A stretch of 64,000 nt of DNA, taken from assembly GCA_030694465.1 (NCBI GenBank), contig JAUXYJ010000103.1:91057-155056 (forward strand), written 5' to 3'. Source of the stretch: Deltaproteobacteria bacterium. Its GTDB lineage: Bacteria; Myxococcota_A; Polyangia; Polyangiales; Ga0077539. Shown here in pieces: positions 2,175-57,102 of the stretch (its first letter is position 1; the number at the start of each line of letters is the position of its first letter). Below the pieces are notes generated by a model, which was not told where the DNA came from, searched no databases, and saw nothing but the letters and a program-made list of their open reading frames with translations. Made by a program: the position numbers and the translations under genes.

Positions 2175-3893
2175 ATGCGTACTTGCTCTGCACTTTGCTT
2201 CACGCTCACTCTCGCGATCACTGCCTGCTCGGATCCTCCGGCCCCCATGGCCGATCGCAACAGTGACGCATCCGGCGACGTCGCCGCCCCACCCAGCGAC
2301 GTCGCCGCTTTGGACGCCGTGATCGAAGATCGCGCGCCCCCGCCCATGCCCGTCTGCGGCAACGGCCGCGTTGAATCAGGCGAGGTCTGCGACGACGGCA
2401 ACATGCGCAGCGGCGACGGATGTCGCGATGATTGCCTGCGAATTGAGCCAGATTATGTATGCACCGTCGCGGGCATGCCATGCATGACCACCGCGGTCTG
2501 TGGCGACGGGCGCATCGGTGGACCCGAGCAGTGCGACGATCGCAACATGACCTCGGGCGACGGCTGCTCGGCCATGTGCACCCTCGAGCCTGGCTATGTG
2601 TGCCCACTGCAGGGCGTCGCGTGTCGCGCGGCCCGCTGCGGCGATGGCATCCGCGCCGACGTCGAGGCCTGTGACGACGGCAACATGGCCGCACGCGACG
2701 GATGCTCGCCCATGTGCCAACTCGAAGACGGTTTTGCCTGCACAATGCCAGGGATGCCGTGCGTCGCCATCCGCTGCGGCGACCGCATGACACAGGGCAA
2801 CGAGCAGTGTGACGACGGCAACAACCTCCCCGGGGACGGGTGCTTTGAGTGCCGCCGCGAGCCCACGTGCACCACGAGCGGCTGCACTACGCAGTGCGGT
2901 GACGGCGTGCTCTTGGCACCCGAGCAGTGCGACGACGGCAACACGCGCAACAACGACGGGTGCAGCGCGACGTGCATGACCGAGCCTGGCTACGCGTGCA
3001 TGATGATCCGCGCGGCCGAGCCCGCGACGGTGCAAGTTCCCATTGTGTATCGCGATTTTCGCGGGGCAGATCTCGCGGGCGGGCACCCGGACTTCGAGAG
3101 CTTTGGGGGCTCTGAGCGCGGCATCGTCACGGCGATGCTCACCGGCGGCAAGCCCACCTATGCGCGCGCGGCGGGCGGCTCGGCCACCACGAGCGGTCGT
3201 GCCGCGTTTGACCAATGGTACCGAGACACCGCCGGGGTCAACGTCACGCTCGTCGAGCGGCTCACGTTGACGAGGGTCTCTGCAGGGATTTATCGCTACA
3301 ACAACAGCGCGTTTTTTCCGCTGGATGGACGCGGTTGGATCGCGATGGGACGCGAGATGCCTCGCAACGACGGGCACAATTTTCACTTCACCAGCGAGCT
3401 TCGGTACTGGTTTCAGTACGCGGGCGGCGAGACGCTTGAGTTTACCGGCGACGACGACGTGTTTGTGTTTATCAACGGCCGTCTGGCCGTGGATCTCGGC
3501 GGAGTCCATGGCGCAGAGAGCGGCAGCGTCACGCTCAACCCCGCGACCGCGACGACGCTCGGGCTCACCGTGGGGCGCGTGTATGAGCTCGCGCTCTTTC
3601 AGGCCGAACGACACACCACCGAGTCGAACTATCGGCTCACGCTGGGTGGGTTTAACCTGCCGAGATCATTGTGTAATTCGGCCTGCGGAGATGGCGTGGT
3701 CACCCGCGACGAGGCCTGCGATGACGGCACCAACGACGGCCGCTACGGGGGCTGTCTGCCGGGCTGCCGCATGCGCGCGCCCTTCTGCGGCGACGGGATG
3801 CTTCAGCGTGACAGCGGCGAGCAGTGCGACGACGGCAACATGGTCAACGGCGACGGCTGCTCGACCCGCTGCGAAAACGAAACCATCGGTTAA
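2175..3893 (+). CDS. Lipoprotein with myxobacterial Cys-rich repeats (CGDG..CDDGN..GDGCS..C, DUF4215-type) flanking a fibro-slime/PA14-like domain
   Basis: Lipobox LAITAC. Eight or more repeats of the C-x-DG-x-CDDGN-x-GDGCS motif. Central VPIVYRDFRG...HPDFE segment is typical of the fibro-slime domain. Confidence 0.7.
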   Translation: MRTCSALCFTLTLAITACSDPPAPMADRNSDASGDVAAPPSDVAALDAVIEDRAPPPMPVCGNGRVESGEVCDDGNMRSGDGCRDDCLRIEPDYVCTVAGMPCMTTAVCGDGRIGGPEQCDDRNMTSGDGCSAMCTLEPGYVCPLQGVACRAARCGDGIRADVEACDDGNMAARDGCSPMCQLEDGFACTMPGMPCVAIRCGDRMTQGNEQCDDGNNLPGDGCFECRREPTCTTSGCTTQCGDGVLLAPEQCDDGNTRNNDGCSATCMTEPGYACMMIRAAEPATVQVPIVYRDFRGADLAGGHPDFESFGGSERGIVTAMLTGGKPTYARAAGGSATTSGRAAFDQWYRDTAGVNVTLVERLTLTRVSAGIYRYNNSAFFPLDGRGWIAMGREMPRNDGHNFHFTSELRYWFQYAGGETLEFTGDDDVFVFINGRLAVDLGGVHGAESGSVTLNPATATTLGLTVGRVYELALFQAERHTTESNYRLTLGGFNLPRSLCNSACGDGVVTRDEACDDGTNDGRYGGCLPGCRMRAPFCGDGMLQRDSGEQCDDGNMVNGDGCSTRCENETIG

Positions 3894-3908
3894 ATCCCTG
3901 CACATCGC

Positions 3909-5036
3909 GTGTACTCTCGCGCGATGACAACCGTGCACACCGTGGGCTCTCTCTCGCGCGCCATGGAGGCGATCGCGCCCACGCGCTTCGCCGCCTCGTG
4001 GGACAACGTGGGGCTCTTGGCCGGAGACCCTACGAGCACGATCACCTCGGTTTTGCTCTGCATTGACCTCACCCGCGAGGTCTTTGACGAGGCCTGCTCG
4101 CTCGGTGTGCAAGCGATCATTGCGTATCACCCGCCGCTGTTTAAGCCCCTCGCGCGGGTCACGCAGGGCTCGCTCATTTACGAGGCCATTCGGCACGACA
4201 TCGCGATCTATTCGCCGCACACGGCGCTCGACGCGGCCGACGGAGGGACCAACGATGTGCTCGCGGATTGCGTGGGAATCTCCAGGCACAATCGCACTTC
4301 TCTCGCCCCGCCTCCGAGCCGCGAGACCCACTGCAAGCTCGTCACGTTTGTCCCGCGCGACGCGCAAGACCGCGTGTGCGATGCGCTCTTTGCAGCGGGC
4401 GCCGGGGTGATCGGGCACTACACGCAGTGCTCGTTTCGCGTGGACGGACACGGGACTTTCTTGGGTGACCCTGCGCACACGAGCCCCGCCGTGGGCCAAG
4501 CCGGGCAGCGCGAGCGCGCCGAAGAGACCCGCGTCGAGGTGCTGGTCCCGCTGGCTCTTCGAGAGGCCATAGTGCAAGCGCTCTACGCAGCACACCCGTA
4601 CGAAACCCCTGCGTTTGACCTAGTAAAATTGCTCGACGAGCCCGAGCACAAGGGCTATGGCCGCGTGGGCTCGCTCACTGCGCCGACGCACTTTCGCGAA
4701 GTGCTGAGTGGGCTCAAGCAGGCGCTCGGCGTGAGCCATGTGTTGGTCGCCGGCCCCACCGATCGGGTGATCACGCGTGCCGCAGTGGGCGCGGGTTCGA
4801 CCGGCGAATACCTGGGCGCAGCCCTCGCGCAACGTGTGGATCTCTTTGTCTTGGGCGAGCTCAGACACCACGACGCCCTCCGCGCGGCGAGCGCTGGGCT
4901 GACCGTCGTGATGACCCTGCACTCGGTCTCAGAGCGCGCCACATTGCGCCATGTGCAATCGCGATTGCGCGCGGCCCTGCCTGAGCTGTCTCTGCACCTG
5001 AGCCAGCGCGATCACGATCCCCTGGTGATTTGCTAA
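3909..5036 (+). CDS. Nif3-family dinuclear metal-centre protein (YqfO/GTP cyclohydrolase 1 type 2 homologue)
   Basis: AASWDNVGLL and IIAYHPPLF motifs; length with central insert is typical of bacterial Nif3. Confidence 0.75.
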   Translation: MYSRAMTTVHTVGSLSRAMEAIAPTRFAASWDNVGLLAGDPTSTITSVLLCIDLTREVFDEACSLGVQAIIAYHPPLFKPLARVTQGSLIYEAIRHDIAIYSPHTALDAADGGTNDVLADCVGISRHNRTSLAPPPSRETHCKLVTFVPRDAQDRVCDALFAAGAGVIGHYTQCSFRVDGHGTFLGDPAHTSPAVGQAGQRERAEETRVEVLVPLALREAIVQALYAAHPYETPAFDLVKLLDEPEHKGYGRVGSLTAPTHFREVLSGLKQALGVSHVLVAGPTDRVITRAAVGAGSTGEYLGAALAQRVDLFVLGELRHHDALRAASAGLTVVMTLHSVSERATLRHVQSRLRAALPELSLHLSQRDHDPLVIC

Positions 5037-5078
5037 CGGTTCGCTCTTTGCACACCGCGCTCTCTTAGGACCCACCCC

Positions 5079-5879
5079 ATGAAATCCATTGCTCCTCGCC
5101 TCGCCCTCGCCGTGGTGCTTTTGCACGCTTCGCCGAGCCTCGCCCTGCGCATCGCGCCACCGCAGCCCATGCCCGTCCCAGTCACGCCGATGCCCTCGCC
5201 CAACCCGGTGCCCGTCGAGGTGATCGTCGTGCCGCCCGGCGGCGACCAGGGCCCCATGCCCTCACCCCAACCGCAGCCCGTGATGATCGAGCCCATCGTG
5301 GTGCAGCCCGCGATCACGCAGGCCCCCGTACGCCAGCCCCCGATCGCGCGCCCGATGGAGCCACCGCCCTGCCCCAGCGTGGGAGAAGAGTACATCCCGA
5401 GAGAGAGCGCCGAGCGATATCGCGAGCGATCCAACACGCTCTTTCTCGTTGGGAGCATTGGCTACGGCAGCGTCTCGGGCACCCTCCCGGTGGTGATCCC
5501 TGGAGTCACGCTGGGCGCATCGCTGCGCATTGTGCGCAGCGGTTGGCTCGTCGAGCCGAGCTTCGATGTGGTCTTCGATGGCCAGCGTCTGGGCAGCTCT
5601 GCGCCCTATCTCGAGATCAGACCGGCAGTGCGCGGAGGCTACACGGGCGCGATCACTCAGCACATCGCCCTGGGAATTCGCTTGGGATATGCGATGGACC
5701 TCGCCATCTCACGCTTTAACCCGCCGGGGCTTATTCACCAAGTCGAGCTCTCGCCGCACCTCACGATTGTCACCGACCGCGGCGTGATCCTCGAGCCCTT
5801 CTTGGCCGCCGGCGTGCAGATCGCCAACCCGATCACACCCATCGCAGTGCTCGGCCTCCGTGTGGGCACGATGCTGTAA
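5079..5879 (+). CDS. Secreted Pro-rich protein with beta-rich C-terminal half
   Basis: Signal peptide MKSIAPRLALAVVLLHASPSLA; PxP repeats; alternating hydrophobic C-terminus. Confidence 0.45.
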   Translation: MKSIAPRLALAVVLLHASPSLALRIAPPQPMPVPVTPMPSPNPVPVEVIVVPPGGDQGPMPSPQPQPVMIEPIVVQPAITQAPVRQPPIARPMEPPPCPSVGEEYIPRESAERYRERSNTLFLVGSIGYGSVSGTLPVVIPGVTLGASLRIVRSGWLVEPSFDVVFDGQRLGSSAPYLEIRPAVRGGYTGAITQHIALGIRLGYAMDLAISRFNPPGLIHQVELSPHLTIVTDRGVILEPFLAAGVQIANPITPIAVLGLRVGTML

Positions 5880-6049
5880 CAGCCTGTGAATTTGCAGGCG
5901 CATCGAGAGGCGCGAGAATCCGAAGTCGCAATCTTCGTGCGGGTGACTCGTGGCCAAGCTAGCGTGGCTGTGCGTCGGGGGATCGAGACCTCTTCGCAGC
6001 AGCGGGGCGCGAGGTGACCAGAGCCCCCCTGACATTGGGCGAGGTCACC

Positions 6050-6274
6050 ATGGATGATTGGATAGCGAAAATGCAGACGAAAGTGAAGTTGCGAGCCAAT
6101 CCTTCCTTCGACATCCGCAAACGCATCCAGCTCTCTGAGGCCGACATCTGCCCGCAGGGACGGCCCACCTGCCGATGTCTTGAGATGCGCGCGCAGATCT
6201 GGACTGCGCCTCCGAGCGGCTCGTACCTCTTCAGCGCGGCCTACTCCCATGGCGGCGACGTGAGGTTTCACTGA
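6050..6274 (+). CDS. Small hypothetical protein, stop overlaps start of downstream Cys-rich lipopeptide (TGATG)
   Basis: ORF MDDWIAKMQTKVK...; 1-nt overlap with next ORF; lower local GC; no homology recognised. Confidence 0.3.
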   Translation: MDDWIAKMQTKVKLRANPSFDIRKRIQLSEADICPQGRPTCRCLEMRAQIWTAPPSGSYLFSAAYSHGGDVRFH

Positions 6275-6561
6275 TGCTTCGCCCAGTGATTTCGCTGCTC
6301 GTTCTCGCGTGGGCCTTCGTCGGCTGCGGCGAGTCCGTGGCACCGCAGGTGTGCGATGGGCCCTGTGTCACCGACGCGGCGACGCAGCCCGATGTGGCGC
6401 CATCCCCAGCAACATGCCCCGCAGAGCGGCCTGTGGTCGGAAGCATGTGCAGCCCTTCATTGGGCGGCGAGGTCTGTTTCTACGGTCGTGAGATTACTTA
6501 CACTTGCATTTGCCGCTGCTTCGACGCTGGCTGCTTCTGGATCACCTGCGACAGCGCTTAA
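6274..6561 (+). CDS. Small secreted Cys-rich lipopeptide (95 aa, 9 Cys), copy 1
   Basis: Signal/lipobox LLVLAWAFVGC; ends CRCFDAGCFWITCDSA. Confidence 0.55.
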   Translation: MLRPVISLLVLAWAFVGCGESVAPQVCDGPCVTDAATQPDVAPSPATCPAERPVVGSMCSPSLGGEVCFYGREITYTCICRCFDAGCFWITCDSA

Positions 6562-6585
6562 CTCACCTCAGCCCATGAGCCCATC

Positions 6586-6879
6586 GTGACATTTCGCCCA
6601 GTGATTTCGCTGCTCGTTCTCGCGTGGGCGTTTGTCGGTTGCGGCGAGTCCGTGGCACCGCAGGTGTGCGATGGGCCCTGTGTCACCGACGCGGCGACGC
6701 AGCCCGATGTGGCGCCATCCCCAGCAACATGCCCCGCAGTGCGGCCTGTAGTCGGAAGCATGTGCAGCGCTTCACTAAACGGCGAGTACTGTCAATACGG
6801 TCGTCGTCCAATTATTATTAGTTGCCGTTGCCGCTGCTTCGACGCTGGCTGCTTCTGGATCAGCTGCGACAACGATTAA
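6586..6879 (+). CDS. Small secreted Cys-rich lipopeptide (97 aa), copy 2, paralogue of 6274..6561
   Basis: Residues 3-55 identical to copy 1 except one substitution (AERP vs AVRP); C-terminal 16 aa nearly identical; central 20 aa diverged. Confidence 0.55.
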   Translation: MTFRPVISLLVLAWAFVGCGESVAPQVCDGPCVTDAATQPDVAPSPATCPAVRPVVGSMCSASLNGEYCQYGRRPIIISCRCRCFDAGCFWISCDND

Positions 6880-6888
6880 CTCACCTCA

Positions 6889-6906
6889 CCCGGCGACGTC
6901 GCCGGG
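6889..6906. repeat. Perfect 18-nt palindrome CCCGGCGACGTCGCCGGG between convergent genes (hairpin; terminator-like)
   Basis: Self-complementary sequence 10 nt after the TAA of 6586..6879 and 11 nt before the stop of 6917..7225(-). The same 16-mer core recurs at 16789, 17637, 44213 and 55922. Confidence 0.45.
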
Positions 6907-6916
6907 TCGCGCGCGC

Positions 6917-7225
6917 TCAGTCCAATCGGCAGCCCTCGCGCTGTGAGATCCAGCGGGCGCGGGCTCCCCACGAGAGCACCGCTTGCGTCTCGACTTCGCG
7001 CCGCGCGTGGTCCACGCGCACCGTGCGCAGGTTGGGGTTGGCCCGGGTCCAGCGCAGGCAAAACGCCTCGTCTTTGTGCATCACAAAGACACACGAGCAC
7101 ATCTCTTTGGCCGCGTACGACGTGAGCAGCGCGAGGTCGTGGTTGTTGTACGGGCGCGGGTCGCCGGGGCAGCCCGCGAGCACGAGCGCCACCGAGGCCA
7201 GCGCTGCACGCAACAGAGTCTTCAT
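6917..7225 (-). CDS. Small lipoprotein (102 aa)
   Basis: Lipobox VLAGC; start overlaps stop of the upstream serine hydrolase gene by 4 nt (ATGA). Confidence 0.5.
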   Translation of the reverse strand: MKTLLRAALASVALVLAGCPGDPRPYNNHDLALLTSYAAKEMCSCVFVMHKDEAFCLRWTRANPNLRTVRVDHARREVETQAVLSWGARARWISQREGCRLD

Positions 7226-8376
7226 GGTGCCACCGCCATCGCCGCTGCAATAAACCCAGCAAAGTCAAAGCCCCGAACGCGATCGTCCGCGGTGCGCACG
7301 ATGACCAATTCGCGCGAGGGGATCACCGTGATCGACTGACCCCAGTGCCCGCGCGCTGCGTAGGTGTCCTCGGGGACTCCGGGCCACGGCGTCGTGACGC
7401 CCTGCTCGGGCACTGGTCGGTTGAGCCAAAACTGCCGGCCCTGCACGTCGTCGGCGTCTGCATCGAGCCTGCGAATTCGCTGCGGAGCGCTCACCTCGGT
7501 CGACGTGCGCACCCACCCCTCGGGCAGGATGCGTTGATCTCGCCAGCAGCCATCGCGCAGCAAGAAGTAGCCAAAGCGCGCGAGGTCTCGCGGCGTGGCG
7601 TACCAGTACGAAGAGCCGATGGGCGTGCCGCTCGCGTCGCGCTCGAGCGTGGCCGAGGTGATCCCGAGCGGATCAAACACATATCGCCATGGATATTCGC
7701 TGTCTTCGCCCGCTGCGCTGTACGCGCGATCGACCGCGCGCGAGAGCAAGTTTGTGTCGCCCGACGAGTACATGTACGTCGTCCCTGGGCGGTCACGAAA
7801 AGGGTGCGAGCCCACAAAGCCCGCGGCGTCGTGGTGGCCCACGCCGTAGAGCATCGCGAGGACCGAGCTCTCTTGGTTGGACGCGTTCTCGTAGGTCTCG
7901 CGCCAATCAAGACCGGTCGCGAACTCCATCGGGTGCTGCACCGTGAGCGCGCACATGTCCATGCGCAGATAGGGCATCCAGCGGCAGAGCGAATCGCTGA
8001 GATTGAGGTAGCCGCGACCGACCGCGATGCCTGTTAAAACATTGGTCAAGCTCTTGGTCATCGACCAGGTGTAGTGCGGCTGCTCGGCGGTCCATGTGCG
8101 CCCATAGCGCTCGTACACAAGCACGCCGCGATGGAGAATAAGCACCGAGTCCGTGCGCACGCCCAAGCGCTGGTCGTCTTCGCCCGTGAGCGTAAACACA
8201 CGCTGCTCGAGCGCTGCGATTTCGGTCGCCCGCGCGGCGCGGGTGGTCTCAATCGCGGACTCCCACTGCGCGTCGGGATAGCGCACGCCCGCAGGGCACG
8301 ACGACTGCGCGAGGGCGCTCGTGGGAGAGAGCGCGAGGGTCGCAATTGCTAGGTAAATTCCAGCTAAAATTCTCAT
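7222..8376 (-). CDS. Beta-lactamase/penicillin-binding-fold serine hydrolase, secreted
   Basis: Signal peptide; SxxK motif SMTKS; YSSG-like motif; class C/esterase-like length. Confidence 0.7.
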   Translation of the reverse strand: MRILAGIYLAIATLALSPTSALAQSSCPAGVRYPDAQWESAIETTRAARATEIAALEQRVFTLTGEDDQRLGVRTDSVLILHRGVLVYERYGRTWTAEQPHYTWSMTKSLTNVLTGIAVGRGYLNLSDSLCRWMPYLRMDMCALTVQHPMEFATGLDWRETYENASNQESSVLAMLYGVGHHDAAGFVGSHPFRDRPGTTYMYSSGDTNLLSRAVDRAYSAAGEDSEYPWRYVFDPLGITSATLERDASGTPIGSSYWYATPRDLARFGYFLLRDGCWRDQRILPEGWVRTSTEVSAPQRIRRLDADADDVQGRQFWLNRPVPEQGVTTPWPGVPEDTYAARGHWGQSITVIPSRELVIVRTADDRVRGFDFAGFIAAAMAVAP

Positions 8377-8933
8377 TCGAACACTCCCTGCATCAGCGGA
8401 ACCTGCAGCCCCAACGGGATGCTCGTGCAGGTCACCTGCGACAGCGACATGCGGGCCTCGAGCGATTGTGAGCGCACGCTGCCGTCGTCAAACCACCGCG
8501 CCGTGGGGCTCGTCGTGTGTGTGCGTGCAACAGTGCGCGTGGGCGTGGGCGCTCTGCGTGTGAGCTGCATCAAGAGCGTCGCGCCGGCGGGCAAAAGCAC
8601 AGACTCGGCGAGCGTAAAGAGCGCAAAGTTTCCGATGTTTCCGATCCAGACGCCTGAGAGCGCGCCCACGGCCATCGCGCCCCAGTGCAACGGAAGCGTC
8701 GCGACCACCGCGGGCCACAAGCGGTACGCGCCGGGCTCGTACTGGTTGGTCACAAAGCTCATCAAGCCCGAGACCGCCATCGGTGGCCCCAGCCCCATCA
8801 CCAAGAGCGCCGGGAGCCCTCCGCCCAAAAGATCAGGCGAAACCCTCGTCAACGCGGTCCCAAGGCCCACGGCAGCGGGCACCGTGATCACCGTCGCGGC
8901 CACCCCAGCGACCACACCGTCAAACACGGCCAT
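8373..8933 (-). CDS. Integral membrane protein (unknown function), first gene of a 3-gene minus-strand operon
   Basis: Multiple hydrophobic helices. Stop overlaps the hydrolase start (ATGA). The annotated ORF extends to 9287 but would overlap the cstA start; internal Met at 8933 chosen, and the real N-terminus may be longer. Confidence 0.4.
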   Translation of the reverse strand: MAVFDGVVAGVAATVITVPAAVGLGTALTRVSPDLLGGGLPALLVMGLGPPMAVSGLMSFVTNQYEPGAYRLWPAVVATLPLHWGAMAVGALSGVWIGNIGNFALFTLAESVLLPAGATLLMQLTRRAPTPTRTVARTHTTSPTARWFDDGSVRSQSLEARMSLSQVTCTSIPLGLQVPLMQGVFE

Positions 8934-9181
8934 CGCGCGTGGCGACCACCCGGGGCTCTCTGCGGTCTCTCGCGCGGTGAGCGACACGCGCGGATCCGAT
9001 GCGGGCGGTGGCGGCGCGATCACCTCGGCCGACGCCGTAGTGCTCGCACTCAGCGTCGCGGCCACCACCCCACACGCAAGCGCTCTTGTGACAGAGCTCC
9101 CAATGAATCTGTGATGCCAATGCACGCGCGCATCGAAGCACAGAGACCCGCCACGCGTCGAGATCGCGCACAAACTCTCAC

Positions 9182-15527: not shown

Positions 15528-16108
15528 GCGCCCTCCGCCTCGGCCTCGCGGTGGTCTTGAGTGCCTCTGGCTGGGGCCTCGCGACCCAGCGCGCCATGCA
15601 CGCTCACCCCGCACACTCGCCTGCAATCATCCCCGCGAATTCACACTCGGAGCGCTCACAGCCTGCGCCGGATCTCTCTACCCTCACCCCACCAACGACA
15701 CCGGCGATTGTGCGCGAGGAGCCCACGCCTCAGCAGCTTCCCGTCGCGCCAGCACCCGTCGAAGCAGCACCCGTCGCGCTAGCACCCGCCCTGCGCGATG
15801 ACCCTGCAGGGATCGAGCTTCCGATCACACCCGAGGGGCAGATCGAAGCGAGCGCACTTCAGCGCGCGCGTTGGGTCGCCGAGCTCATCGCGCGTCCCCA
15901 CAGTGTGCACCGTCGACGCGTGCGCATCGAGGTCATCGCCGGAAGCGACAGCAGCGTTTCTGCCCAGCAAATCAGCCAAAACGTCTCGCAGCTCCTCCGC
16001 TCACACGGCGTGTGGAACGCTCAACTCGTCCACAGCGCGACCACTCTCGCGCCCGCGCAGACCTCGCGCGTAGTGCTCACTCCCCTCGCCCCTGGAGTCT
16101 CTCGATGA
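15524..16108 (+). CDS. Secreted Pro-rich protein of unknown function
   Basis: GTG start overlapping the Roadblock stop (GTGA); signal peptide VSALRLGLAVVLSASGWGLA; PxxP-rich N-terminal half. Confidence 0.45.
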   Translation: MSALRLGLAVVLSASGWGLATQRAMHAHPAHSPAIIPANSHSERSQPAPDLSTLTPPTTPAIVREEPTPQQLPVAPAPVEAAPVALAPALRDDPAGIELPITPEGQIEASALQRARWVAELIARPHSVHRRRVRIEVIAGSDSSVSAQQISQNVSQLLRSHGVWNAQLVHSATTLAPAQTSRVVLTPLAPGVSR

Positions 16109-17055
16109 GCCTCATGGATCTCTTCGCCATCGCCACAGGCGCCCTCGGCACGACCGCGGTGGGCTACCTCGTCGCAGCACGACAATCACAACGCGCGCTG
16201 GACCGAGAACAGATTCTGCAAGCCAATTTGCAGATCCAATTGCGATCATTGCAGACAGATCTGATGCACGCCGAGCGGCAACACAGCGTGCTCTCGATGC
16301 GAATGGGGCTGTCTGGCACGAGCCCGGTGAGCGCCGACGCGATCTTGAGCGAGCTGGCCTCGGGGCAGCAGCTCGACGCCGTGTGTTTGGCCGATGCCGA
16401 GGGGCTGCCGTGGGGGTGCGCGGGCGACCGAGAGCTCGCGCTTGAGCTCGCAGCGCTCGCTCCGTGGATGCTCGCGCCGGGTGCGTTGGAGGCGTCATCG
16501 CGGCTGCGGGTGCTCGGCGCTTCGGGAGCGACACTGTTTGCGCTGCGCTGTGTTTATCAAGGCCGCGTGATGATTTTGGCTGGGGTTCATGCCGTGCGAA
16601 CGATCGACTCGTTTGCTTTTGAGCGTGCAGCGCTCTTGCTTGAGCGAGGTCAGCGCGCGAGCGTTGAGCCCGCGCCTGTGTTGCCTCAAAGCGTCACGCT
16701 CTCGCTCTCGCAAGACCCAGCACTCGACGCCCGAATGCGTACGGTGGCTGCACGCGCCCTCTGGGTCGGAACACGAGCCTGCGGAGACCCCGGCGACGTC
16801 GCCGGAATGCAAACGCGTTGCGGCTGGCTCGCAGAAATCTTGGAGAGGGCCGCTCGCACAGGCCTCAGCAGCCCCGTGGCCATCGTCCTGCAGCGCGAAC
16901 ATGACACGCTCGTTCAGTTTGGTGAAGGCGCAGGATTTCAGGGCGGAGCGCTGTTGCCGCAGCGACAGATTTCGCGCGCAGAGTTGCATCGCATCGAAGC
17001 TGTGTTGCGCAGGCTGCACCACGAGACGCGCAGCGGCGAGCGCGCGGCGGCCTAG
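16105..17055 (+). CDS. Membrane-anchored coiled-coil protein with a second Roadblock/LC7-like domain
   Basis: ATG overlaps the upstream stop (ATGA); N-terminal TM helix LFAIATGALGTTAVGYLV; coiled-coil; segment AVCLADAEGLPWGCAG...LFALRCVYQGRVMILAGV is Roadblock-like. Confidence 0.5.
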   Translation: MSLMDLFAIATGALGTTAVGYLVAARQSQRALDREQILQANLQIQLRSLQTDLMHAERQHSVLSMRMGLSGTSPVSADAILSELASGQQLDAVCLADAEGLPWGCAGDRELALELAALAPWMLAPGALEASSRLRVLGASGATLFALRCVYQGRVMILAGVHAVRTIDSFAFERAALLLERGQRASVEPAPVLPQSVTLSLSQDPALDARMRTVAARALWVGTRACGDPGDVAGMQTRCGWLAEILERAARTGLSSPVAIVLQREHDTLVQFGEGAGFQGGALLPQRQISRAELHRIEAVLRRLHHETRSGERAAA

Positions 17056-17116: not shown

Positions 17117-17635
17117 ATGAGCGACATACTCTTGCACCGCGGCGCGCGCTGGGATCTTGTGGCCCGCGAAGAGCCCTCTCGGGGCAACCCTGATCACAGA
17201 CGCGAGCTGGTGATTCACCCGGGCTCGGTGGTGATCTTGCCGTTGCTCGACGACGACCGGGTTGTGCTCATCCGCAACGAGCGCGTCTCGGCCGGGCGCG
17301 CGCTCATTGAGCTCCCCGCCGGAACCAGAAATCCCAGCGAATTGCCTTACGATTGCGCGCTCCGTGAGCTCACCGAAGAGACAGGGTACCGCTGCGAAGC
17401 GCTCACTCCGTTGACTCGGTTTTTTATCGCGCCGGGCGTGACCGACGAAGAGATGCACGTCTTTGTCGCCAAGGGACTCTCACCTGGGCCACAACGGCTC
17501 GAAGACGACGAGCGGATCACCGTGCTTTTGGCCTCGTGGAGTGAGTGTCTCGCGATGATTCAGCGAGGCCAAATCGAGGACGCAAAGTCGGTCGCGGCGC
17601 TCTTGCACTACGTCACATTTGTGCGCTCTCGCTAA
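17117..17635 (+). CDS. NUDIX hydrolase (ADP-ribose pyrophosphatase-like)
   Basis: Nudix box ELPAG...RELTEETG. Confidence 0.75.
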   Translation: MSDILLHRGARWDLVAREEPSRGNPDHRRELVIHPGSVVILPLLDDDRVVLIRNERVSAGRALIELPAGTRNPSELPYDCALRELTEETGYRCEALTPLTRFFIAPGVTDEEMHVFVAKGLSPGPQRLEDDERITVLLASWSECLAMIQRGQIEDAKSVAALLHYVTFVRSR

Positions 17636-17636
17636 T

Positions 17637-17652
17637 CCGGCGACGTCGCCGG
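17637..17652. repeat. Second intergenic copy of the palindrome CCGGCGACGTCGCCGG between convergent genes
   Basis: Lies 2 nt after the TAA of the NUDIX gene and 14 nt before the stop of 17666..19609(-). Confidence 0.45.
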
Positions 17653-24353: not shown

Positions 24354-24502
24354 TAAGATAGAAAGATATATCGATACAGATATACTAAGTGATTTTTCTC
24401 TGCATTTTTATGCTGATGAGGCTCTGGCATGGTCCGTGAAGTGAACTCTGGCATCAACGCGGCTCGAAGGGAGCACGCGGTGACACGAAAGGCAGAGCGA
24501 CC
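24354..24502. promoter_or_regulatory. rtcR-rtcB divergent intergenic region; AT-rich block (about 40% GC over 70 bp) with duplicated CTCTGGCAT motifs; expected site of RtcR UAS and sigma-54 promoter
   Basis: ttaagatagaaagatatatcgatacagatatactaagtgatttttctctgcattttta is atypically AT-rich for this genome. Two TGGCAT elements fall at 24424 and 24450, but no clean TGGCAC-N5-TTGC was found. Confidence 0.35.
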
Positions 24503-25765: not shown

Positions 25766-25873
25766 ACGAGCGAATCACGGGAGAAATTCGGTGCTTCGCC
25801 GTCTTATATTTTCATAAGCTACTTTCGCGAGAGCAGATCAGGACACACCCTCGCGCGCACTGGTTTTTAACGA

Positions 25874-31451: not shown

Positions 31452-32273
31452 TCACGCATAGACCGAACGAACTGGATTTTTGCTTAGAAATTCACGAACA
31501 AGGTCACGCACCCGGTCGGGCTGCTCGACGCTCGACAGGTGACCCGCGTCGGCCATGAGCGCGTGTTGCGCGCCGACGATGCCATCGACAATGCTCTTGC
31601 TGTGCGGGGCGGGCAGGGCGCGATCTGCGCCGCCCTCGATCACCAGCGTGGGGCACGTAATACGCTTGAGCTGCGGACGCAGATCCGTGCGATTGGCCAC
31701 GGCGTCTACCGCGTAGAAGAGCCCACGACGGTCCATGGATTTCCACCGGTCTTTGAAGCGCTCGACCTCATGGGGTGCGCTGCGCATAAACGTCTCAGAG
31801 AACATCAACGGCACCACGGTCTTGGCCACTGGCTCAGTCACGCCCACTGCGAGCACCGATGCCGCGAGAGCCATGTACTTCGCGCGGTTAAAAGCCGACT
31901 CGCGCGCTGCGCTGCTGTTGAGAATCACCAGCGCATCGACGCGTGAACGGTAGTGAATCGCCGCACGCATCGCGGTAAATCCACCCTGCGAGAGACCCAC
32001 CATGGTGGCGCTACGAACCCCTGCGTGATCGAGGACTGCAACAGCATCTTGGGCTTGGTCTTCTTGGGTAAATCGCTTGCTGGGCGCGCTGGAACGACCA
32101 TGTCCCCGGAGCTCTAAATGCAGCACCCGGTGGTCGTGCGCGAGGTCCTGGGCGAGGTGAGCAAACATCGCGGCGTCGCACAAAAGACTGGGCATCAGCA
32201 ACACGCAGTGTGCGTCACGTGGGCCAAGGTCGTCGTAGTGAAGTGTGCACGTAGAGCGCTGAACCAGAGGCAT
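31452..32273 (-). CDS. Alpha/beta-hydrolase fold protein
   Basis: GLSQGG nucleophile elbow; HG oxyanion region near the N-terminus. Confidence 0.7.
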   Translation of the reverse strand: MPLVQRSTCTLHYDDLGPRDAHCVLLMPSLLCDAAMFAHLAQDLAHDHRVLHLELRGHGRSSAPSKRFTQEDQAQDAVAVLDHAGVRSATMVGLSQGGFTAMRAAIHYRSRVDALVILNSSAARESAFNRAKYMALAASVLAVGVTEPVAKTVVPLMFSETFMRSAPHEVERFKDRWKSMDRRGLFYAVDAVANRTDLRPQLKRITCPTLVIEGGADRALPAPHSKSIVDGIVGAQHALMADAGHLSSVEQPDRVRDLVREFLSKNPVRSVYA

Positions 32274-32301
32274 GGTGCAGAGCTTTATCGCGTTGTGCCG
32301 C

Positions 32302-36014: not shown

Positions 36015-36107
36015 CGAATGATTGCAGGGAGTTAGCCGCGAAGCCTTGAGCGCTCTGGGGGGCAAACGACAGAGCATGGCTTGTGCGTTGCTCGTCGCGG
36101 GAGGGGT

Positions 36108-44005: not shown

Positions 44006-45148
44006 GTGATGACACTTTTGAGCAGTCCGAGGCGGTTTGCACGTGGACTACGGAGCGCAGCGCTGGCGTGCGCGGCGCTGTCGCTCTCGTGTGCTCCGGG
44101 GACCGATTTTTTTATCTCGGTGCAGGGGATCCCAGGCGGGGCGTTTTTGGGAGCGTGGGTTTCGCCTGATGGATCGCAGGCGTTTTTGGCCGGAGGGCTC
44201 GTCGGTGTCGACCCGGCGACGTCGCCGGATCCCATGGCCATGGGGCGCTTGGTGCGCTATCGGCAGGGTCGCTTTGAGACGCTCTGTCGCACGCCCTCGG
44301 TGCTGTGGTGGGTCTTTGGCGTCGATGGGGTCGTGTTTGCGAGCGGCGAAGACGGGATGGTCTTGCGCTACGACGAGGCGCGTGGGTGCGTGCGTCTGCC
44401 CTTGGGAGGGAGCTGGCCGCGCGGGCTCCCGACCCTCTGGGGCGTGTGGGGACCGAGCGCAAATGACCTCACGTTTGTGGGCGGCAGCGCGCTCCCTGAT
44501 GGCCCACGGGGAGTGCTCTTGCGCTACGATGGTGCTGCGTTTACGCAGGCGGTTCTTCCGTCGGCGATGCAAGACGTGAACCTCTACAAGCTCGCGCCCT
44601 CGGCCAGCGGGCTCTTTGTTGTGGGCGCGCGTGGGACCATCGCGCGGCGCCCTCTGGCGGGAGGAGAGTTTGCGATCGAGCCCGTCCCGAGGCTCGGCGG
44701 AGACGACCTGCTCTTCACGGTCGCGTGCCCGCAGACGGGCTCTGAGGACTGCATCGCGGTCGGAGGCGTTGGCATCGGGCGCGTGCTGCGGCGCGGCGCG
44801 GCGGGCGCATGGACCCTTGACCCGATCAGCGAAGAAAACGCTGGGCTCAATGGCGTATGGATCGGTACAGACCGGCGCGCTTTTATCGTGGGAAATCAGG
44901 GCACCACGTTGTTTACAGACAGCACCGGAGCGCAGCCCACGTTGCGTCCTCCGATGCCCGCGGTGCGTGATCCATTGCACGCGGTGGCGGGCGGTGGCGG
45001 GCTCGTGATCGCGGTCGGCGGCGAGCTCTTTGACTCGCGCCCCAGCCAGCGCGGGACGATCTTGCTGCGCGGGCCACAGCGCGGGGGCTTTGTCTTCGAT
45101 GGCATGCCAGTCGCGTCTACGGGCGCGCTGAGAGAGGCACTCCCGTGA
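44006..45148 (+). CDS. Lipoprotein, probable beta-propeller-like repeats
   Basis: Lipobox LSLSCAPG; repeated G..VW/VF....G blocks; contains an in-frame copy of the 16-nt palindrome (codes PATSP). Confidence 0.4.
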   Translation: MMTLLSSPRRFARGLRSAALACAALSLSCAPGTDFFISVQGIPGGAFLGAWVSPDGSQAFLAGGLVGVDPATSPDPMAMGRLVRYRQGRFETLCRTPSVLWWVFGVDGVVFASGEDGMVLRYDEARGCVRLPLGGSWPRGLPTLWGVWGPSANDLTFVGGSALPDGPRGVLLRYDGAAFTQAVLPSAMQDVNLYKLAPSASGLFVVGARGTIARRPLAGGEFAIEPVPRLGGDDLLFTVACPQTGSEDCIAVGGVGIGRVLRRGAAGAWTLDPISEENAGLNGVWIGTDRRAFIVGNQGTTLFTDSTGAQPTLRPPMPAVRDPLHAVAGGGGLVIAVGGELFDSRPSQRGTILLRGPQRGGFVFDGMPVASTGALREALP

Positions 45149-45741: not shown

Positions 45742-47150
45742 TTAGCTCCCCGCGGGGGTGAGCCACACGTAGCCCGCGAGGCCTTCAGAGACGTAGCCGC
45801 TGCCGATCGCGCTGTCGCGCTCGGCGGTCGAGGTTGTGTAGAAGTGATCCTCGCGCAAGACCAGGCGGTAGAGCGGCACTGCGCCGCACGCAGGGCTGGT
45901 CGAGATGAAGCCCATGGGGCCCTCGACACGCACGCCCTCGCACGCGGGGTCGGCAGTGTAAAAGTGCCAACCGGCGGGTGTCACGCAGCGCATAAACGGC
46001 ACAAGCCCCGGCGCAGCGCCGCTGTAGAGATAGTAAAAATTCTCGTATTCGCGGCGAAAACCACAGCAAACAGACTCGGCAAGGCTCGTCGTGTAGAAGT
46101 GCTCGCCGGTGGACAAGTGCACCGAGCGGTGTACGCCCGTGCGGCATCCCGCGGTCTCGTCGCAGCGCCCGTCGCAGTTGTCGTCCACGAGGTTGCAGCT
46201 CTCTGCCGGTCGCAGCCCACAGCCGCCACAGTGGCTCGGGTCGGTGCGGGTGTTGACCTCGCAGCCGTTGCTTCCGTTGCCATCGCAGTCGGCAAAACCG
46301 GCGCTGCAGCTGCTCACGGTACACACGCCCCCGGTGCACGCACCCGAGCCATTGGCAAACGCACAGGCCCGCCCACATCCGCCACAATGCGTGGGTACTT
46401 CGAGGGATTGTTCGCACCCATCGCTCGCGCTCCCGTTGCAGTCTCCGAAGCCTCGGGCGCACGTCGCGACCCCGCATCGCCCCGCGGTGCACACCCCCGT
46501 CGATTGCGCAGGCGCACAGCGTTGACCACACGCGCCGCAGTGCTCGACGCTCGATTGCAGCGCTTGTTCACACCCATCGCTCGCGAGCCCGTTGCAGTCG
46601 GCGAACCCGGCCGTGCACCCCGCCAGCGCGCAGCGTCCAGCCATGCATGTGCCCATCCCGTTGGCCGGAGCGCACGCGCGACCGCACGAGCCACAGTTCG
46701 CGAGGCTGCTCGCGACGTCGGTCTCGCAGCCATCGTCGACGCGGCCATTGCAGTCGCCACGGCCGGCCAAGCAGGTCGAGTTGCACACGCCCGCGACGCA
46801 CGTGCCCATCGCGCCCCCGAGGCCGCGGCAGGTGACATCACAGTCCCCACAATTTCGGCTGTCACGCTGCAAATCTACGCAGATTGTCCCACACAGGCGC
46901 AGCCCCGCGGCGCACAGCGCGGGCACCACGTCGGCCGACTGTGCGTCAAGAGGAGGCATGACGGCGACGTCGCCGGGGGGCATCACGCGGTCCATCGCGA
47001 AGCCGTCTTGCCCGAGCGCCGCGTCGGTCTGTCCGTCGCTGCGCACGACGTCGGGCCCGGCGGGATTGACACCGATCGCGCAGCCCGCGGACATGAGGGC
47101 CAGGACGCTTACGCGCGCACGCAGAGAGAGTACCGACGAGAGGCTCATGG
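45742..47150 (-). CDS. Cys-rich repeat lipoprotein (HCGxCG / GF.DC.G...GCE repeats) with C-terminal HFYT-motif repeats
   Basis: Real start at Met with lipobox LMSAGC, about 47150. The ORF tool extends to 47958 but that part overlaps the + strand hydroxylase gene. Four 45-aa Cys repeats; three HFYTT/HFYTA motifs at the C-terminus. Confidence 0.55.
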
Positions 47151-55239: not shown

Positions 55240-57102
55240 TCACCTGCGGGGCGTGAGATAGCGATTGAACAAATGAAACTCGATCTCGTTCGTCGCGCCG
55301 GGGTCGACCATTTGCATCCCCGAAAACACACGGCGAACGCACGCGACCAGCGCAGGCCGCGCGCGCGTGGTGTCTCCGCGCGGGGTCACAGTCTCGACGG
55401 CTCCCTGGCCATTGAGCGAGAGCTCAAAGTCCATGCCCCAGCCCTGCTCGTTGCCCTCTCCGTCGCCTGGGCGCACTTGGCTCGCACAGCGACTCAGCGC
55501 GGGCAGCGCGGGCTGCAGATTCGCGCGCGCATCGGTCCCCGTGCGGTTTGGAAACCGCCCCCCCGAGTACGTCGTGCGCACCGCGCCAAGCCCCGCAGCG
55601 CCTCGCGCACGCAGTGTGCCGAGGCCGCTCTCGGGGCGGTCGTCCGAGCCTACGCGACTACGCGCTGTGCGAGCGATGCGAGCCAACGCGGCGGAGGTGC
55701 GCGCGCGCACGTCGGTGACTTCGGGAGGCTCTTCGGGCGCGGTGGGCGAGGCGTTCTGGGGCGGAGCACTAGGAGATTCGTGATTCGTTTGAGCAACTTG
55801 CGTAGGTGTCTCGGCAGGCGCCATAGGCGGCTCGGGCACGTCGAGAGTCTGCGCCACAGGAGCCGAAGCGTCTTGGCTCACAGCCGGCGTGTAGGTGCTC
55901 GTGACGTGTAGACTGCGTGTCCCGGCGACGTCGCCGGTTGTGGTCACCTCGAGCGAACGCGAGCCTCCCCGGAGCCCAAACCCGAGCGCTACGCCCGCGA
56001 GCGAGAGCACGCCCGCCGCAGCCCAAGGGAGCCACTTGCGCGGGGTCGTTGTCGCTGTCGTGGGCGCGCTGCCCGGCGGCGCGGCGGTCACGGTGGGGCT
56101 CACGGCGCGGGGCCCAAAGGGGTCGTTGGGGGGAGTGCTTCGCGGCGCGGGTGTCACCAGCAGACCGGTCGCAGCCATGGTGTGAGCGAGGGCGATGTCG
56201 CCGCGAGGAGCGCTGCTGAGCGTGGTGGCCGAGACGCTGCGCACGACGAAAGGCTCAAGCGCTTTCATTAGCGAATCTGCAGTGTCAAAGCGTACAGAGA
56301 GGTCTCTGGCCATCGCGCGTTCGATCACAGCGGCGAAGCCTTGAGGGAGATCTGCGCGCAGGGACGCGAGCGGCTCGGGGGTCTCTTCGAGGATGGCAAA
56401 CAGCAGCGCGTGATAGTTGGTCGCGCGAAAAGGCAGCTGTCCCGTGAGCATCTCATAGAGCATCACGCCGACCGAGTACACATCGGTGCGCGCGTCCACG
56501 GCGCGACCACGGGCCTGCTCGGGAGACATGTACGCGGGCGTGCCGAGCACGGCGCCAGTGCTCGTGAGCTTTGCGTGTGCGCCGCTCTCGGTAAACCGCG
56601 CGATGCCAAAGTCCAACACTTTGACCACGTCGTAGACACCCGAGACCTGGGTCAAGAACACGTTGTCGGGCTTGATGTCACGATGAACAATCCCTGCATG
56701 ATGCGCGGCGCGCAGCGCTGCGAGCACCTGCGAGGCGATCCAAGCTGCGCGTTCGGGCGACAGGGGGCCATTGCAGTCGAGCTCGTGCGCGAGCGACCCG
56801 CCCTCAAGCAGCTCCATCACCAAGAACACGCCCTCGGGGCCCGCACCGAAGTCGGTCACCGCGATGATATTGGCGTGACCGAGCGAAGCCGCTGACTGCG
56901 CTTCACGCTGAAATCTCGCTACGATTTCTGGGTTCTCAGCGTAGGCAGGGAGCAAGACCTTGACGGCGACTCGCCGCCCGAGTCCCTCTTGAATGGCCTC
57001 GTAGACCGCGCCCATTCCGCCCTCACCGAGCTTGCGCACCACGCGATATTTCTGCCCAATGAGCTGTCCAGTCAGTGCGTCTTTGTCGGTCATTTGGCTC
57101 AC
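55240..57102 (-). CDS. Ser/Thr protein kinase with TM segment and extracytoplasmic C-terminal domain
   Basis: GEGGMGAVY, VAVK, HRDIKPDNVFL, DFGIAR, SPEQ motifs; TM WLPWAAAGVLSLAGVALGF. Confidence 0.8.
   Translation of the reverse strand: MSQMTDKDALTGQLIGQKYRVVRKLGEGGMGAVYEAIQEGLGRRVAVKVLLPAYAENPEIVARFQREAQSAASLGHANIIAVTDFGAGPEGVFLVMELLEGGSLAHELDCNGPLSPERAAWIASQVLAALRAAHHAGIVHRDIKPDNVFLTQVSGVYDVVKVLDFGIARFTESGAHAKLTSTGAVLGTPAYMSPEQARGRAVDARTDVYSVGVMLYEMLTGQLPFRATNYHALLFAILEETPEPLASLRADLPQGFAAVIERAMARDLSVRFDTADSLMKALEPFVVRSVSATTLSSAPRGDIALAHTMAATGLLVTPAPRSTPPNDPFGPRAVSPTVTAAPPGSAPTTATTTPRKWLPWAAAGVLSLAGVALGFGLRGGSRSLEVTTTGDVAGTRSLHVTSTYTPAVSQDASAPVAQTLDVPEPPMAPAETPTQVAQTNHESPSAPPQNASPTAPEEPPEVTDVRARTSAALARIARTARSRVGSDDRPESGLGTLRARGAAGLGAVRTTYSGGRFPNRTGTDARANLQPALPALSRCASQVRPGDGEGNEQGWGMDFELSLNGQGAVETVTPRGDTTRARPALVACVRRVFSGMQMVDPGATNEIEFHLFNRYLTPRR

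What the first reader, a model, noticed from the sequence alone, without database searches (positions are those of the whole stretch)
6889..6906. Perfect palindrome CCGGCGACGTCGCCGG is massively over-represented (5 perfect copies plus partials; expected about 0.001)
The self-complementary 16-mer, containing an AatII site GACGTC, occurs perfectly at 6889-6906 (extended to 18 nt), 16789-16804, 17637-17652, 44213-44228 and 55922-55937. Degenerate copies lie at 2272-2287, 2296-2309 and 46962-46975, with a half-site at 57185. Given the base composition, one copy per 64 kb is already improbable.

Because it is a palindrome, it encodes GDVAG, PATSP or RRRRR depending on frame and strand, and all three are seen in CDS copies. 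This resembles a genome-wide repeated motif of the REP/uptake-sequence/protein-binding-site type that has invaded both intergenic and coding DNA.
Basis: seen in the sequence. Interest (0 to 1): 0.6.

Follow-up and report, generated by a model that had tools for sequence, protein, structure and literature searches.

The report
Lineage-specific iterated 16-bp DNA palindrome
An uncultured myxobacterium carries many identical copies of one 16-18 bp DNA palindrome, both between genes and written over existing protein-coding sequence, resembling the unexplained 'iterated palindromes' of cyanobacteria and the DNA-uptake signals of Neisseria and Haemophilus.

Summary
CCGGCGACGTCGCCGG occurs 5 times perfectly, and its 14-mer core 7 times, in 64 kb, against about 0.0004 expected. 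It is the most repeated long word in the window.

The window comes from a Myxococcota MAG (locus tags Q8Q09_). Six related loci (about 106 kb) lack even the 10-mer core.

- **Placement:** two copies fill the 30- and 38-nt spacers between convergent genes. The rest lie in annotated genes, mostly in linkers, in frame GDVAG (4 loci) or PATSP (1). RRRRR appears only in a spurious antisense ORF.
- **Origin:** at 44213 the palindrome aligns codon for codon with homologues, with no insertion. It puts Ser where 18 of 19 homologues have Leu/Val/Ile. This copy arose in place by substitution, not by transposition.
- **Spectrum:** perfect copies outnumber degenerate ones. Half-sites, GACGTC and CCGG are not enriched on their own.

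Best reading: a DNA-level signature palindrome that behaves like HIP1 or an uptake sequence but is twice as long and about ten times sparser. It is probably the site of an unidentified dimeric DNA-binding protein.

Genome-wide distribution, function and partner protein remain untested.

The parts
6889..6906 (.). Perfect copy, extended to the 18-mer CCCGGCGACGTCGCCGGG (a 20-nt palindrome at 6888-6907). It sits centrally in the 38-nt spacer between convergent genes: small lipoprotein 6586-6878 (+) and the 102-aa gene 6917-7225 (-).
   Evidence: Orthology of the 102-aa gene. Predicted RNA hairpin of 8 pairs with a 4-nt loop. The site lies at a synteny breakpoint relative to 5 relatives.
16790..16805 (.). 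Perfect copy inside the annotated CDS 16105-17055 (+) (Q8Q09_27475, hypothetical). Codon phase 2, encoding P-G-D-V-A-G.
   Evidence: The gene is called in both assemblies but has no homologues, so its coding status rests on annotation alone.
17637..17652 (.). Perfect copy in the 30-nt spacer between convergent genes: NUDIX 17117-17635 (+) and the TPR-like gene 17666-19609 (-).
   Evidence: The site lies at a synteny breakpoint, because in 5 relatives the TPR gene abuts dnaJ.
44213..44228 (.). Perfect copy inside the lipoprotein gene 44009-45148 (+) (Q8Q09_27595). Codon phase 1, encoding P-A-T-S-P-D. This copy was formed in place by substitution.
   Evidence: There is no indel against the nearest homologue. 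The codon alignment is GAC CCG GCG ACG TCG CCG GAT against GAT CCG GCA ATG GTT CCA GAT. Ser stands where 18 of 19 homologues have L/V/I.
55922..55937 (.). Perfect copy inside the Ser/Thr kinase gene 55240-57093 (-). Codon phase 2, encoding T-G-D-V-A-G, in the linker just after the predicted transmembrane helix.
46961..46976 (.). One-mismatch copy (perfect 14-mer at 46962-46975) in the DUF5648 lipoprotein gene 45742-47148 (-). Codon phase 2, encoding P-G-D-V-A-V, in the linker after the lipobox.
2272..2308 (.). Two degenerate copies 21 nt apart (2272-2287 with 1 mismatch, 2293-2308 with 2 mismatches). They lie in the post-lipobox linker of the DUF4215/PA14 lipoprotein gene 2175-3893 (+). Both are in phase 2, encoding SGDVAA and PSDVAA.

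Best explanation
This is a lineage-specific iterated palindrome that exists for its DNA sequence, not for the peptide it encodes. Its extended consensus is A-Y-CCGGCGAC|GTCGCCGG-R-T.

New copies arise in place. Pre-existing near-matches are converted to the perfect word by point substitutions, and those substitutions are fixed by a sequence-specific bias. That bias could be selection on the DNA motif, or a drive such as preferential uptake or recombination of DNA that carries the motif.

The symmetric site of about 20 bp, the lack of enrichment of half-sites alone, and the predominance of perfect copies point to recognition of duplex DNA by a dimeric protein encoded elsewhere in the genome.

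Copies persist only where they do little harm:
- in the promoter-free spacers between convergent genes, where the 7-8 bp hairpin with a 4-nt loop may also serve as a 3'-end structure on both strands;
- inside genes, in linkers or loops and in the frames built from well-used codons (GGC GAC GTC GCC, then CCG GCG ACG TCG CCG).

**Shown here:** the excess, the DNA-level identity, absence from relatives, in-place origin of one copy, the frame and location biases, and the mismatch spectrum. **Inferred:** the binding protein and the nature of the bias.
For: - **Excess:** 5 perfect copies against about 4e-4 expected. The word is the top repeated word in the window and is about 50-fold denser than in 2.6 Mb of control loci that each hold one copy.
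- **DNA level:** identical codons in every copy; copies in two frames and in non-coding DNA; codon usage predicts about 0.03 copies of the 12-mer core.
- **In-place origin:** at 44213 there is no indel against 19 homologues. 10 of 16 bases already match in the orthologous DNA of the nearest relative. Thr occurs in 0 of 19 homologues, and Ser replaces L/V/I found in 18 of 19.
- **Lineage-specific:** 0 copies of even GCGACGTCGC in 6 related loci, about 106 kb, whose orthologues are 52-84% identical.
- **Mismatch spectrum:** 5 perfect, 2 with one mismatch, 1 credible with two, and chance level at three.
- **Unit is the whole palindrome:** half-sites outside full copies number 6 against 4-6 expected. 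The flanks extend the symmetry: A in 8 of 14 half-sites at position -2 and a pyrimidine in 11 of 14 at -1.
- **Placement:** 2 of 7 loci fall in convergent spacers that make up 0.7% of the window (my binomial estimate, about 1e-3, from the gene calls). Coding copies sit in post-lipobox or post-TM linkers, and 4 of 5 independent coding loci are in the preferred-codon phase.
- **Published parallels:** uptake sequences favour frames with preferred codons and poorly conserved positions (PMC2817400). HIP1 occurs in all frames and in non-coding DNA (PMC5861425).
Against: - Only one copy could be tested for in-place origin.
- Only 79 kb of the genome was reachable, so 'genome-wide' is unproven. The 4.9 kb upstream and 9.9 kb downstream of the window hold no copy.
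- Density is about 1 per 9-13 kb, roughly ten times lower than HIP1 or uptake sequences.
- No cognate protein, methyltransferase or competence gene was identified.
- No close relative exists in the databases, so conservation (selection) cannot be separated from recent spread.
- Both intergenic copies lie at 3' ends and at synteny breakpoints, which could point to a different primary biology.
Confidence: 0.5

Rival explanations
1. The copies are a regional set of binding or recombination sites. They would be recognised by a ParB-, Noc- or MatP-like chromosome-organising protein, or by a site-specific recombinase, and would be clustered in this part of the chromosome rather than spread genome-wide. 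Such sites tolerate placement inside genes. Because a palindrome reads the same in both orientations, exchange between copies could invert or move segments.
For: - A perfect 16-bp palindrome repeated a handful of times over tens of kb, inside and outside genes, is the pattern I recall for parS-type sites (my own knowledge).
- All copies lie between 2.2 and 56 kb of the 79 kb seen; the flanks hold none.
- Both intergenic copies sit exactly at the two broken junctions of a gene order (CstA..102aa | 443aa..TPR | DnaJ-HSP70) that is shared by 5 relatives.
- The cumulative GC skew turns at about 36 kb.
Against: - Nothing in the window matches canonical parS beyond chance.
- No ParB, recombinase or nucleoid-protein gene was found in the window (gene).
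- The two other ends created by the same rearrangements carry no copy.
- Empty flanks of 5-18 kb are expected about 20% of the time at this density.
- The skew turn rests on a single gene.
- Functional protein sites are usually more degenerate than 5 perfect copies out of 8.
Confidence: 0.15
2. The copies are a miniature mobile element, either a REP-like hairpin moved by a RAYT transposase or a minimal MITE or excision footprint, that inserts copies of itself.
For: - It is a short GC-rich palindrome with hairpin potential.
- Two copies lie between convergent genes, a typical REP location.
- Perfect identity among copies suggests recent spread.
- The flanks share no homology.
Against: - The copy at 44213 is not an insertion.
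- At least 4 loci lie inside genes without breaking the frame, although 16 is not a multiple of 3.
- There is no GTAG-type head, no clustering into BIME-like arrays and no target-site duplication.
- No IS200/IS605-type gene lies in the 79 kb.
Confidence: 0.12
3. The element is primarily an RNA-level feature: a bidirectional 3'-end hairpin (a U-tract-less terminator or a block to 3' exonucleases) that this lineage has standardised. The coding copies would be by-products.
For: - Two copies fill short convergent spacers, a placement with probability about 1e-3.
- The 18-mer folds at -14 kcal/mol, z = -4.2.
- The same palindrome, flanked by A and T runs, looks like a classic terminator in unrelated viral contigs L153, L168 and L170.
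Against: - Five of seven loci lie inside genes, far from 3' ends.
- No U-tract follows the copies, and the terminator scan did not call them.
- With their flanks, the intergenic regions do not fold better than shuffles (z -0.7 to -1.4).
- A hairpin does not need sequence identity, yet the sequence is invariant.
- Other convergent spacers (93 and 263 nt) lack the motif.
Confidence: 0.1
4. The excess is a by-product of methylation-linked biased repair. A methyltransferase paired with a very-short-patch-type nuclease would keep restoring its site, inflating the frequency of the site and its context.
For: - The motif contains CCGG twice and GACGTC once, both common methyltransferase targets.
- Copies are made in place by substitution.
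- HIP1 is tied to orphan methyltransferases (PMC4390886).
Against: - GACGTC is at expectation and CCGG is under-represented (216 against 277), the opposite of what such repair predicts.
- To my knowledge methyltransferases recognise far shorter sites than the 14-20 bp that are specific here.
- No methyltransferase or Vsr gene lies in the window.
Confidence: 0.08
5. The copies reflect chance, codon usage, or a repeated protein motif (GDVAG) under selection.
For: GGC, GAC and GTC are the commonest or near-commonest codons for their amino acids, and GCC is the second for Ala. Elsewhere the word does arise from a repeated SAGDVAG protein domain (L051).
Against: - No shuffle out of 100 gave a copy.
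- Two copies are non-coding and one is in another frame.
- Codons are identical in every copy, including the flanking partial codons.
- Codon-product expectation is about 0.03.
- The host proteins are unrelated to each other.
Confidence: 0.01

Closest known systems
HIP1 (GCGATCGC), the highly iterated palindrome of cyanobacteria
   Same: Both are perfect palindromes far above k-mer expectation. Both occur in coding DNA (more than one frame) and in non-coding DNA with no shared flanks. Both act at the DNA level rather than as peptide or promoter motifs. In both, function and mode of spread are unresolved (PMC5861425, PMC4390886).
   Different: This motif is 16-20 bp rather than 8 bp. It occurs about once per 9-13 kb rather than up to once per gene. 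It is in Myxococcota rather than cyanobacteria. HIP1's internal methyltransferase sites (GATC, CGATCG) are absent. No cognate methyltransferase is known, and its shorter sub-words are not enriched. Cross-genome conservation, shown for HIP1, could not be shown here.
DNA uptake sequences (Neisseria DUS, Pasteurellaceae USS)
   Same: Both are lineage-specific over-represented words. For uptake sequences, published work discusses accumulation by molecular drive. They favour frames with preferred codons and poorly conserved positions (PMC2817400). From my own knowledge, they also often sit as inverted pairs at gene 3' ends. The copy at 44213 and the linker locations fit this pattern.
   Different: Known uptake sequences are asymmetric 9-12-mers at about 1 per kb and are shared across a family. 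This motif is a symmetric 16-mer, about ten times sparser, and absent from the nearest available relatives. No competence machinery or uptake bias is known for this organism.
REP/BIME elements with RAYT transposases
   Same: Both are short GC-rich palindromes that can form hairpins, and both are found between convergent genes.
   Different: REPs are imperfect, 20-40 nt, essentially extragenic, carry a conserved GTAG-type head, cluster together, and are mobilised as insertions. Here the copies are perfect, mostly lie in genes, occur singly, and at least one was made by substitution.
parS and other chromosome-organising protein sites (NBS, matS)
   Same: parS is also a 16-bp palindrome with a central ACGT. 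It is present in several near-identical copies and is tolerated inside genes.
   Different: The sequence is unrelated to the parS consensus outside the centre. No partner gene lies nearby. It is unknown whether the copies are regionally confined.

Membership tests
HIP1-type highly iterated palindrome | Perfect short palindrome far above k-mer expectation | tested here: met
   5 copies against 4e-4 expected. It is the top repeated word in the window.
HIP1-type highly iterated palindrome | Present in non-coding DNA and in several coding frames | tested here: met
   2 intergenic copies, phase 2 at 4 loci and phase 1 at 1 locus.
HIP1-type highly iterated palindrome | Sequence GCGATCGC (or a close variant), with cognate GATC/CGATCG methyltransferases | tested here: not met
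   The sequence is different and twice as long. No methyltransferase gene lies in the window. The rest of the genome could not be examined.
HIP1-type highly iterated palindrome | Density of the order of one per gene | tested here: not met
   7 core copies in 64 kb, and none in a further 14.8 kb.
HIP1-type highly iterated palindrome | Sites conserved between related genomes | tested here: inconclusive
   No copies in 6 related loci. These relatives are distant (orthologues 52-84% identical) and nothing closer exists in the databases.
DNA uptake sequence (DUS/USS) | Over-represented word that arises in place, in tolerant frames and positions | tested here: met
   Searches show one copy without an indel. 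Searches show the frame and linker bias.
DNA uptake sequence (DUS/USS) | Asymmetric 9-12-mer at about 1 per kb | tested here: not met
   The motif is a symmetric 16-mer. The half-site alone is not enriched. Density is about 1 per 9-13 kb.
DNA uptake sequence (DUS/USS) | Preferential uptake of motif-bearing DNA by the competence machinery | not testable with these tools
   This needs transformation or uptake assays, or at least the full gene content of the MAG.
REP/RAYT | Extragenic location | tested here: not met
   5 of 7 loci lie inside annotated genes.
REP/RAYT | Imperfect 20-40 nt palindrome with a GTAG-type head, often in clusters | tested here: not met
   The flanks give A-Y-CCGGCGAC with no GTAG. 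Copies occur singly except for one 21-nt tandem pair.
REP/RAYT | Copies are insertions, and a RAYT gene is flanked by REPs | tested here: not met
   There is no indel at 44213. No Y1-transposase was found in the 79 kb. The rest of the genome was not examined.
parS/ParB centromere sites | 16-bp palindrome matching TGTTNCACGTGNAACA | tested here: not met
   Only 2 matches at 3 mismatches, against 1.65 expected. Neither lies at a copy.
parS/ParB centromere sites | Clustered near parAB or the origin | not testable with these tools
   No parAB, dnaA or dnaN lies in the window. The position of the window in the chromosome is unknown.
Intrinsic terminator | GC-rich hairpin followed by a U-tract at a gene's 3' end | tested here: not met
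   The hairpin is present and 2 copies sit at 3' ends. There is no T-run and the scan did not call them. 5 loci are internal to genes.

The most novel reading that the evidence does not exclude
Myxococcota of this lineage have evolved their own 'self' signal. It is a symmetric site of about 20 bp, read by a dimeric protein and used in DNA uptake, recombination or chromosome organisation. It propagates by a drive strong enough to overwrite conserved residues in proteins, and its orientation-free copies also act as break-and-rejoin points for genome rearrangement, since both intergenic copies sit at synteny breakpoints. This would be the first uptake-sequence/HIP-like system outside the Neisseriaceae, Pasteurellaceae and cyanobacteria, and the first with a long palindromic word.
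Probability: 0.2. Interest if true: 0.75.

Novelty: new variant of a known kind. Interest (0 to 1): 0.5.

Why it matters
To my knowledge, hyper-abundant words with no flanking homology are understood in only two bacterial families, where they are uptake sequences. In cyanobacteria (HIP1) they remain unexplained after three decades.

An independent case in a distant phylum, with a much longer symmetric word, would help in three ways:
- It would show that the phenomenon is more general.
- It gives a site long enough to fish out its binding protein directly.
- It offers a clean example of DNA-level pressure overriding protein sequence: Ser at a position that is otherwise Leu, Val or Ile.

In practice, such a motif is a marker for binning and for spotting recently acquired DNA in these MAGs.

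Tried and rejected
- **Collection scans.** I scanned genome, viral and metagenome collections for the word. They served only as a background control, and the source genome was not recovered.
- **Sampling other parts of the genome through paralogues.** A search with the Stig1-repeat protein returned no protein from this MAG among the best 120.
- **Walking off the window.** This added 4.9 kb upstream and 9.9 kb downstream. Neither holds a copy.
- **Homologues of the gene hosting the 16790 copy.** None exist, so that copy could not be tested for an indel.
- **An ancestral hairpin downstream of the 102-aa gene.** One relative (L118) has CGACGTCG there, but four more relatives have unrelated or no spacers. 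I dropped the idea.
- **Canonical parS.** Absent.
- **Rfam and tRNA scans.** Nothing found.
- **Terminator consensus scan.** It does not call the copies.
- **Half-site enrichment.** Absent.
- **Enrichment or avoidance of short palindromes that might indicate a restriction-modification system.** GACGTC is neutral and CCGG mildly avoided.
- **Literature.** The sequence itself appears only in unrelated cloning primers. I found no description of such a repeat in myxobacteria.

Full report
**1.

CCGGCGACGTCGCCGG occurs perfectly at 6890, 16790, 17637, 44213 and 55922. None of 100 dinucleotide-preserving shuffles gave a copy. Markov-1 and Markov-3 expectations are 3.8e-4 and 6e-5. The 14-mer core occurs 7 times, adding 2273 and 46962. 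With up to 2 mismatches there are 10 matches against 0.21 expected. With 3 mismatches only three more appear, which is chance level.

The excess emerges only for long words. GACGTC is at expectation (34 against 30-35), and the 8-mer CGACGTCG is about 3-fold up, largely because of the full copies. No other 12-16-mer is comparably repeated, apart from words inside the DUF4215 protein repeats.

**2. Source and specificity**

Proteins of the window are annotated in an NCBI MAG labelled 'Deltaproteobacteria bacterium' (Q8Q09_27485, Q8Q09_27595; 313-kb contig). An independent Logan assembly of run SRR13727538 contains the same sequence. Gene content points to Myxococcota: DUF4215 and Stig1 cysteine-rich repeats, many Ser/Thr kinases, and an HSP70 with a long tail.

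Six related loci, about 106 kb in total, contain no copy of even the 10-mer core and no other iterated palindrome. Their orthologues are 52-84% identical. No closer relative exists in the protein database.

As an outside control I used 356 loci (2.6 Mb) from other organisms that each hold one copy. Only 5 hold a second. Those seconds are explained by a repeated SAGDVAG protein domain or by A-run/T-run terminators.

**3. Where the copies sit**

Two perfect copies (6890, 17637) fill the 38- and 30-nt spacers between convergent genes. All convergent spacers together make up about 0.7% of the window, so 2 of 7 loci landing there has a probability of about 1e-3 (my calculation from the gene calls).

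The other loci lie in annotated genes:

| Site | Host gene | Position in protein | Phase / peptide |
|---|---|---|---|
| 2272, 2293 | DUF4215 lipoprotein, 2175-3893 (+) | post-lipobox linker | phase 2, GDVA |
| 46961 | DUF5648 lipoprotein, 45742-47148 (-) | post-lipobox linker | phase 2, GDVA |
| 55922 | Ser/Thr kinase, 55240-57093 (-) | linker just after the transmembrane helix | phase 2, GDVAG |
| 16790 | orphan gene, 16105-17055 (+) | aa 229 of 316; no homologues, so not classed | phase 2, GDVAG |
| 44213 | lipoprotein, 44009-45148 (+) | homologous N-terminal stretch (aa ~70 of 379) | phase 1, PATSP |

The RRRRR reading exists only in an antisense ORF that overlaps the last gene, which has 391 homologues. 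Phase 2 uses GGC, GAC, GTC and GCC: the commonest or near-commonest codons for Gly, Asp and Val, and the second for Ala. Phase 3 would need five arginines, including rare codons.

**4. It acts at the DNA level**

Almost every GDVA peptide in any frame of the window is encoded by this same word. Codon-product expectation for the 12-mer core is about 0.03 copies. The host proteins are unrelated.

**5. How a copy arises**

The gene at 44009-45148 has many homologues. In a 20-sequence alignment the palindrome-encoded stretch VDPATSPDP aligns column for column with VDPAMVPDR of the nearest homologue, with no gap. Thr occurs in 0 of 19 homologues at its position. Ser stands where 18 of 19 have Leu, Val or Ile.

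The orthologous DNA reads GAT CCG GCA ATG GTT CCA GAT, against GAC CCG GCG ACG TCG CCG GAT here. That is 10 of 16 bases already matching, and the same length. This copy was therefore written over a near-match by substitutions, both synonymous and amino-acid-changing. It was not inserted. This is the behaviour reported for uptake sequences (PMC2817400), and it argues against a REP- or MITE-type element.

**6. Shape of the family**

- Perfect copies outnumber degenerate ones: 5 perfect, 2 with one mismatch, 1 with two. This implies recent spread or active maintenance.
- Half-sites outside full copies are at expectation, so the unit is the whole palindrome.
- The flanks extend the symmetry to A-Y-CCGGCGAC, with A in 8 of 14 half-sites at position -2 and a pyrimidine in 11 of 14 at -1. 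That is about one helical turn per half-site, as expected for a dimeric DNA-binding protein.
- The 18-mer can form a 7-pair hairpin with a 4-nt loop at -14 kcal/mol. The intergenic regions do not fold better than shuffles, and no U-tract follows.

**7. Interpretation**

The best-supported reading is a lineage-specific DNA signature palindrome. It behaves like HIP1 and like uptake sequences, but it is a member of neither family: it has a different sequence, twice the length, roughly a tenth of the density, a different phylum and no known partner.

I infer, but have not shown, recognition by a dimeric protein together with a fixation bias, either selection on the DNA motif or an uptake/recombination drive.

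The rivals I keep are:
- a regional cluster of protein or recombinase sites;
- a mobile mini-element;
- a standardised 3' hairpin;
- methylation-linked repair.

In favour of the first rival, both intergenic copies lie at the two broken junctions of a gene order shared by five relatives. That is only two cases, and the other two ends created by the same rearrangements carry no copy.

**8. Limits**

- Only 79 kb of the genome was reachable.
- Only one copy could be tested for an indel.
- No close relatives exist in the databases.
- Function and partner protein are unknown.

Noticed in passing
window 6274-6560 and 6586-6878 (+): A small cysteine-rich lipoprotein gene (about 95 aa, signal LLVLAWAFVGC) is duplicated in tandem. 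The two copies are about 88% identical at the DNA level. The independent Logan assembly breaks between 6307 and 6833, presumably because of this repeat.
   Followed up: partly
window 6890 and 17637; relatives L118, L119, L242, L243, L244: Five relatives share the gene order CstA..beta-lactamase-102aa | 443aa-epimerase-PspA-TPR | DnaJ-HSP70. In the window both junctions are broken and the blocks are inverted or separated. The two intergenic palindromes sit exactly at the 3' ends of the 102-aa gene and the TPR gene, which are two of the four new ends.
   Followed up: partly
window 22773-27775: An RtcR (sigma-54 activator) and RtcB RNA-repair pair is followed by an RNase II/R-family (RNB) gene. 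This lies inside a block of about 14 kb (22.7-36.9 kb) that separates genes which are adjacent in the relatives. The block has slightly lower G+C (0.62-0.64) and no palindrome copy.
   Followed up: no
window 37449-40976 (-) with 36913-37413 (-): An HSP70-like protein of 1175 aa has a long low-complexity C-terminal tail and is paired with a small DnaJ-domain protein. The pair is conserved next to the PspA/TPR genes in all five relatives. Its function is unclear.
   Followed up: no
viral loci L153 (715, 789), L168 (2754, 2828), L170 (1163, 1237): Three related viral or prophage contigs carry the same 16-mer twice, 74 nt apart. Each copy is flanked by AAAA and TTTT (AAAACCGGCGACGTCGCCGGTTTT), like a pair of bidirectional intrinsic terminators. 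This shows that the word serves as an ordinary terminator stem elsewhere.
   Followed up: partly
window, whole: CCGG is mildly under-represented (216 against 277 expected from trinucleotides, z about -3.7) and GGCC over-represented (431 against 353), even though the palindrome contains two CCGG sites.
   Followed up: no
window 32000-40000: The cumulative GC skew falls from 0 to -0.23 by about 36 kb and then rises. The 36-40 kb bin has skew +0.17. This may only reflect the composition of the HSP70-tail gene rather than a replication landmark.
   Followed up: no
window 2388-3829: The repeated 12-16-mers GACGACGGCAACA and TGCGACGACGGCAA come from the DUF4215 cysteine-rich repeats of one protein. 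They are an ordinary protein-repeat signal, in contrast with the palindrome.
   Followed up: yes
L246 (Logan SRR23086381) 2885-9083: A 40%-identical homologue of the window's 1020-aa Stig1-repeat protein lies directly beside dnaN and dnaA in another myxobacterial contig. It is probably a paralogue, so this says little about where the window lies in its chromosome.
   Followed up: no
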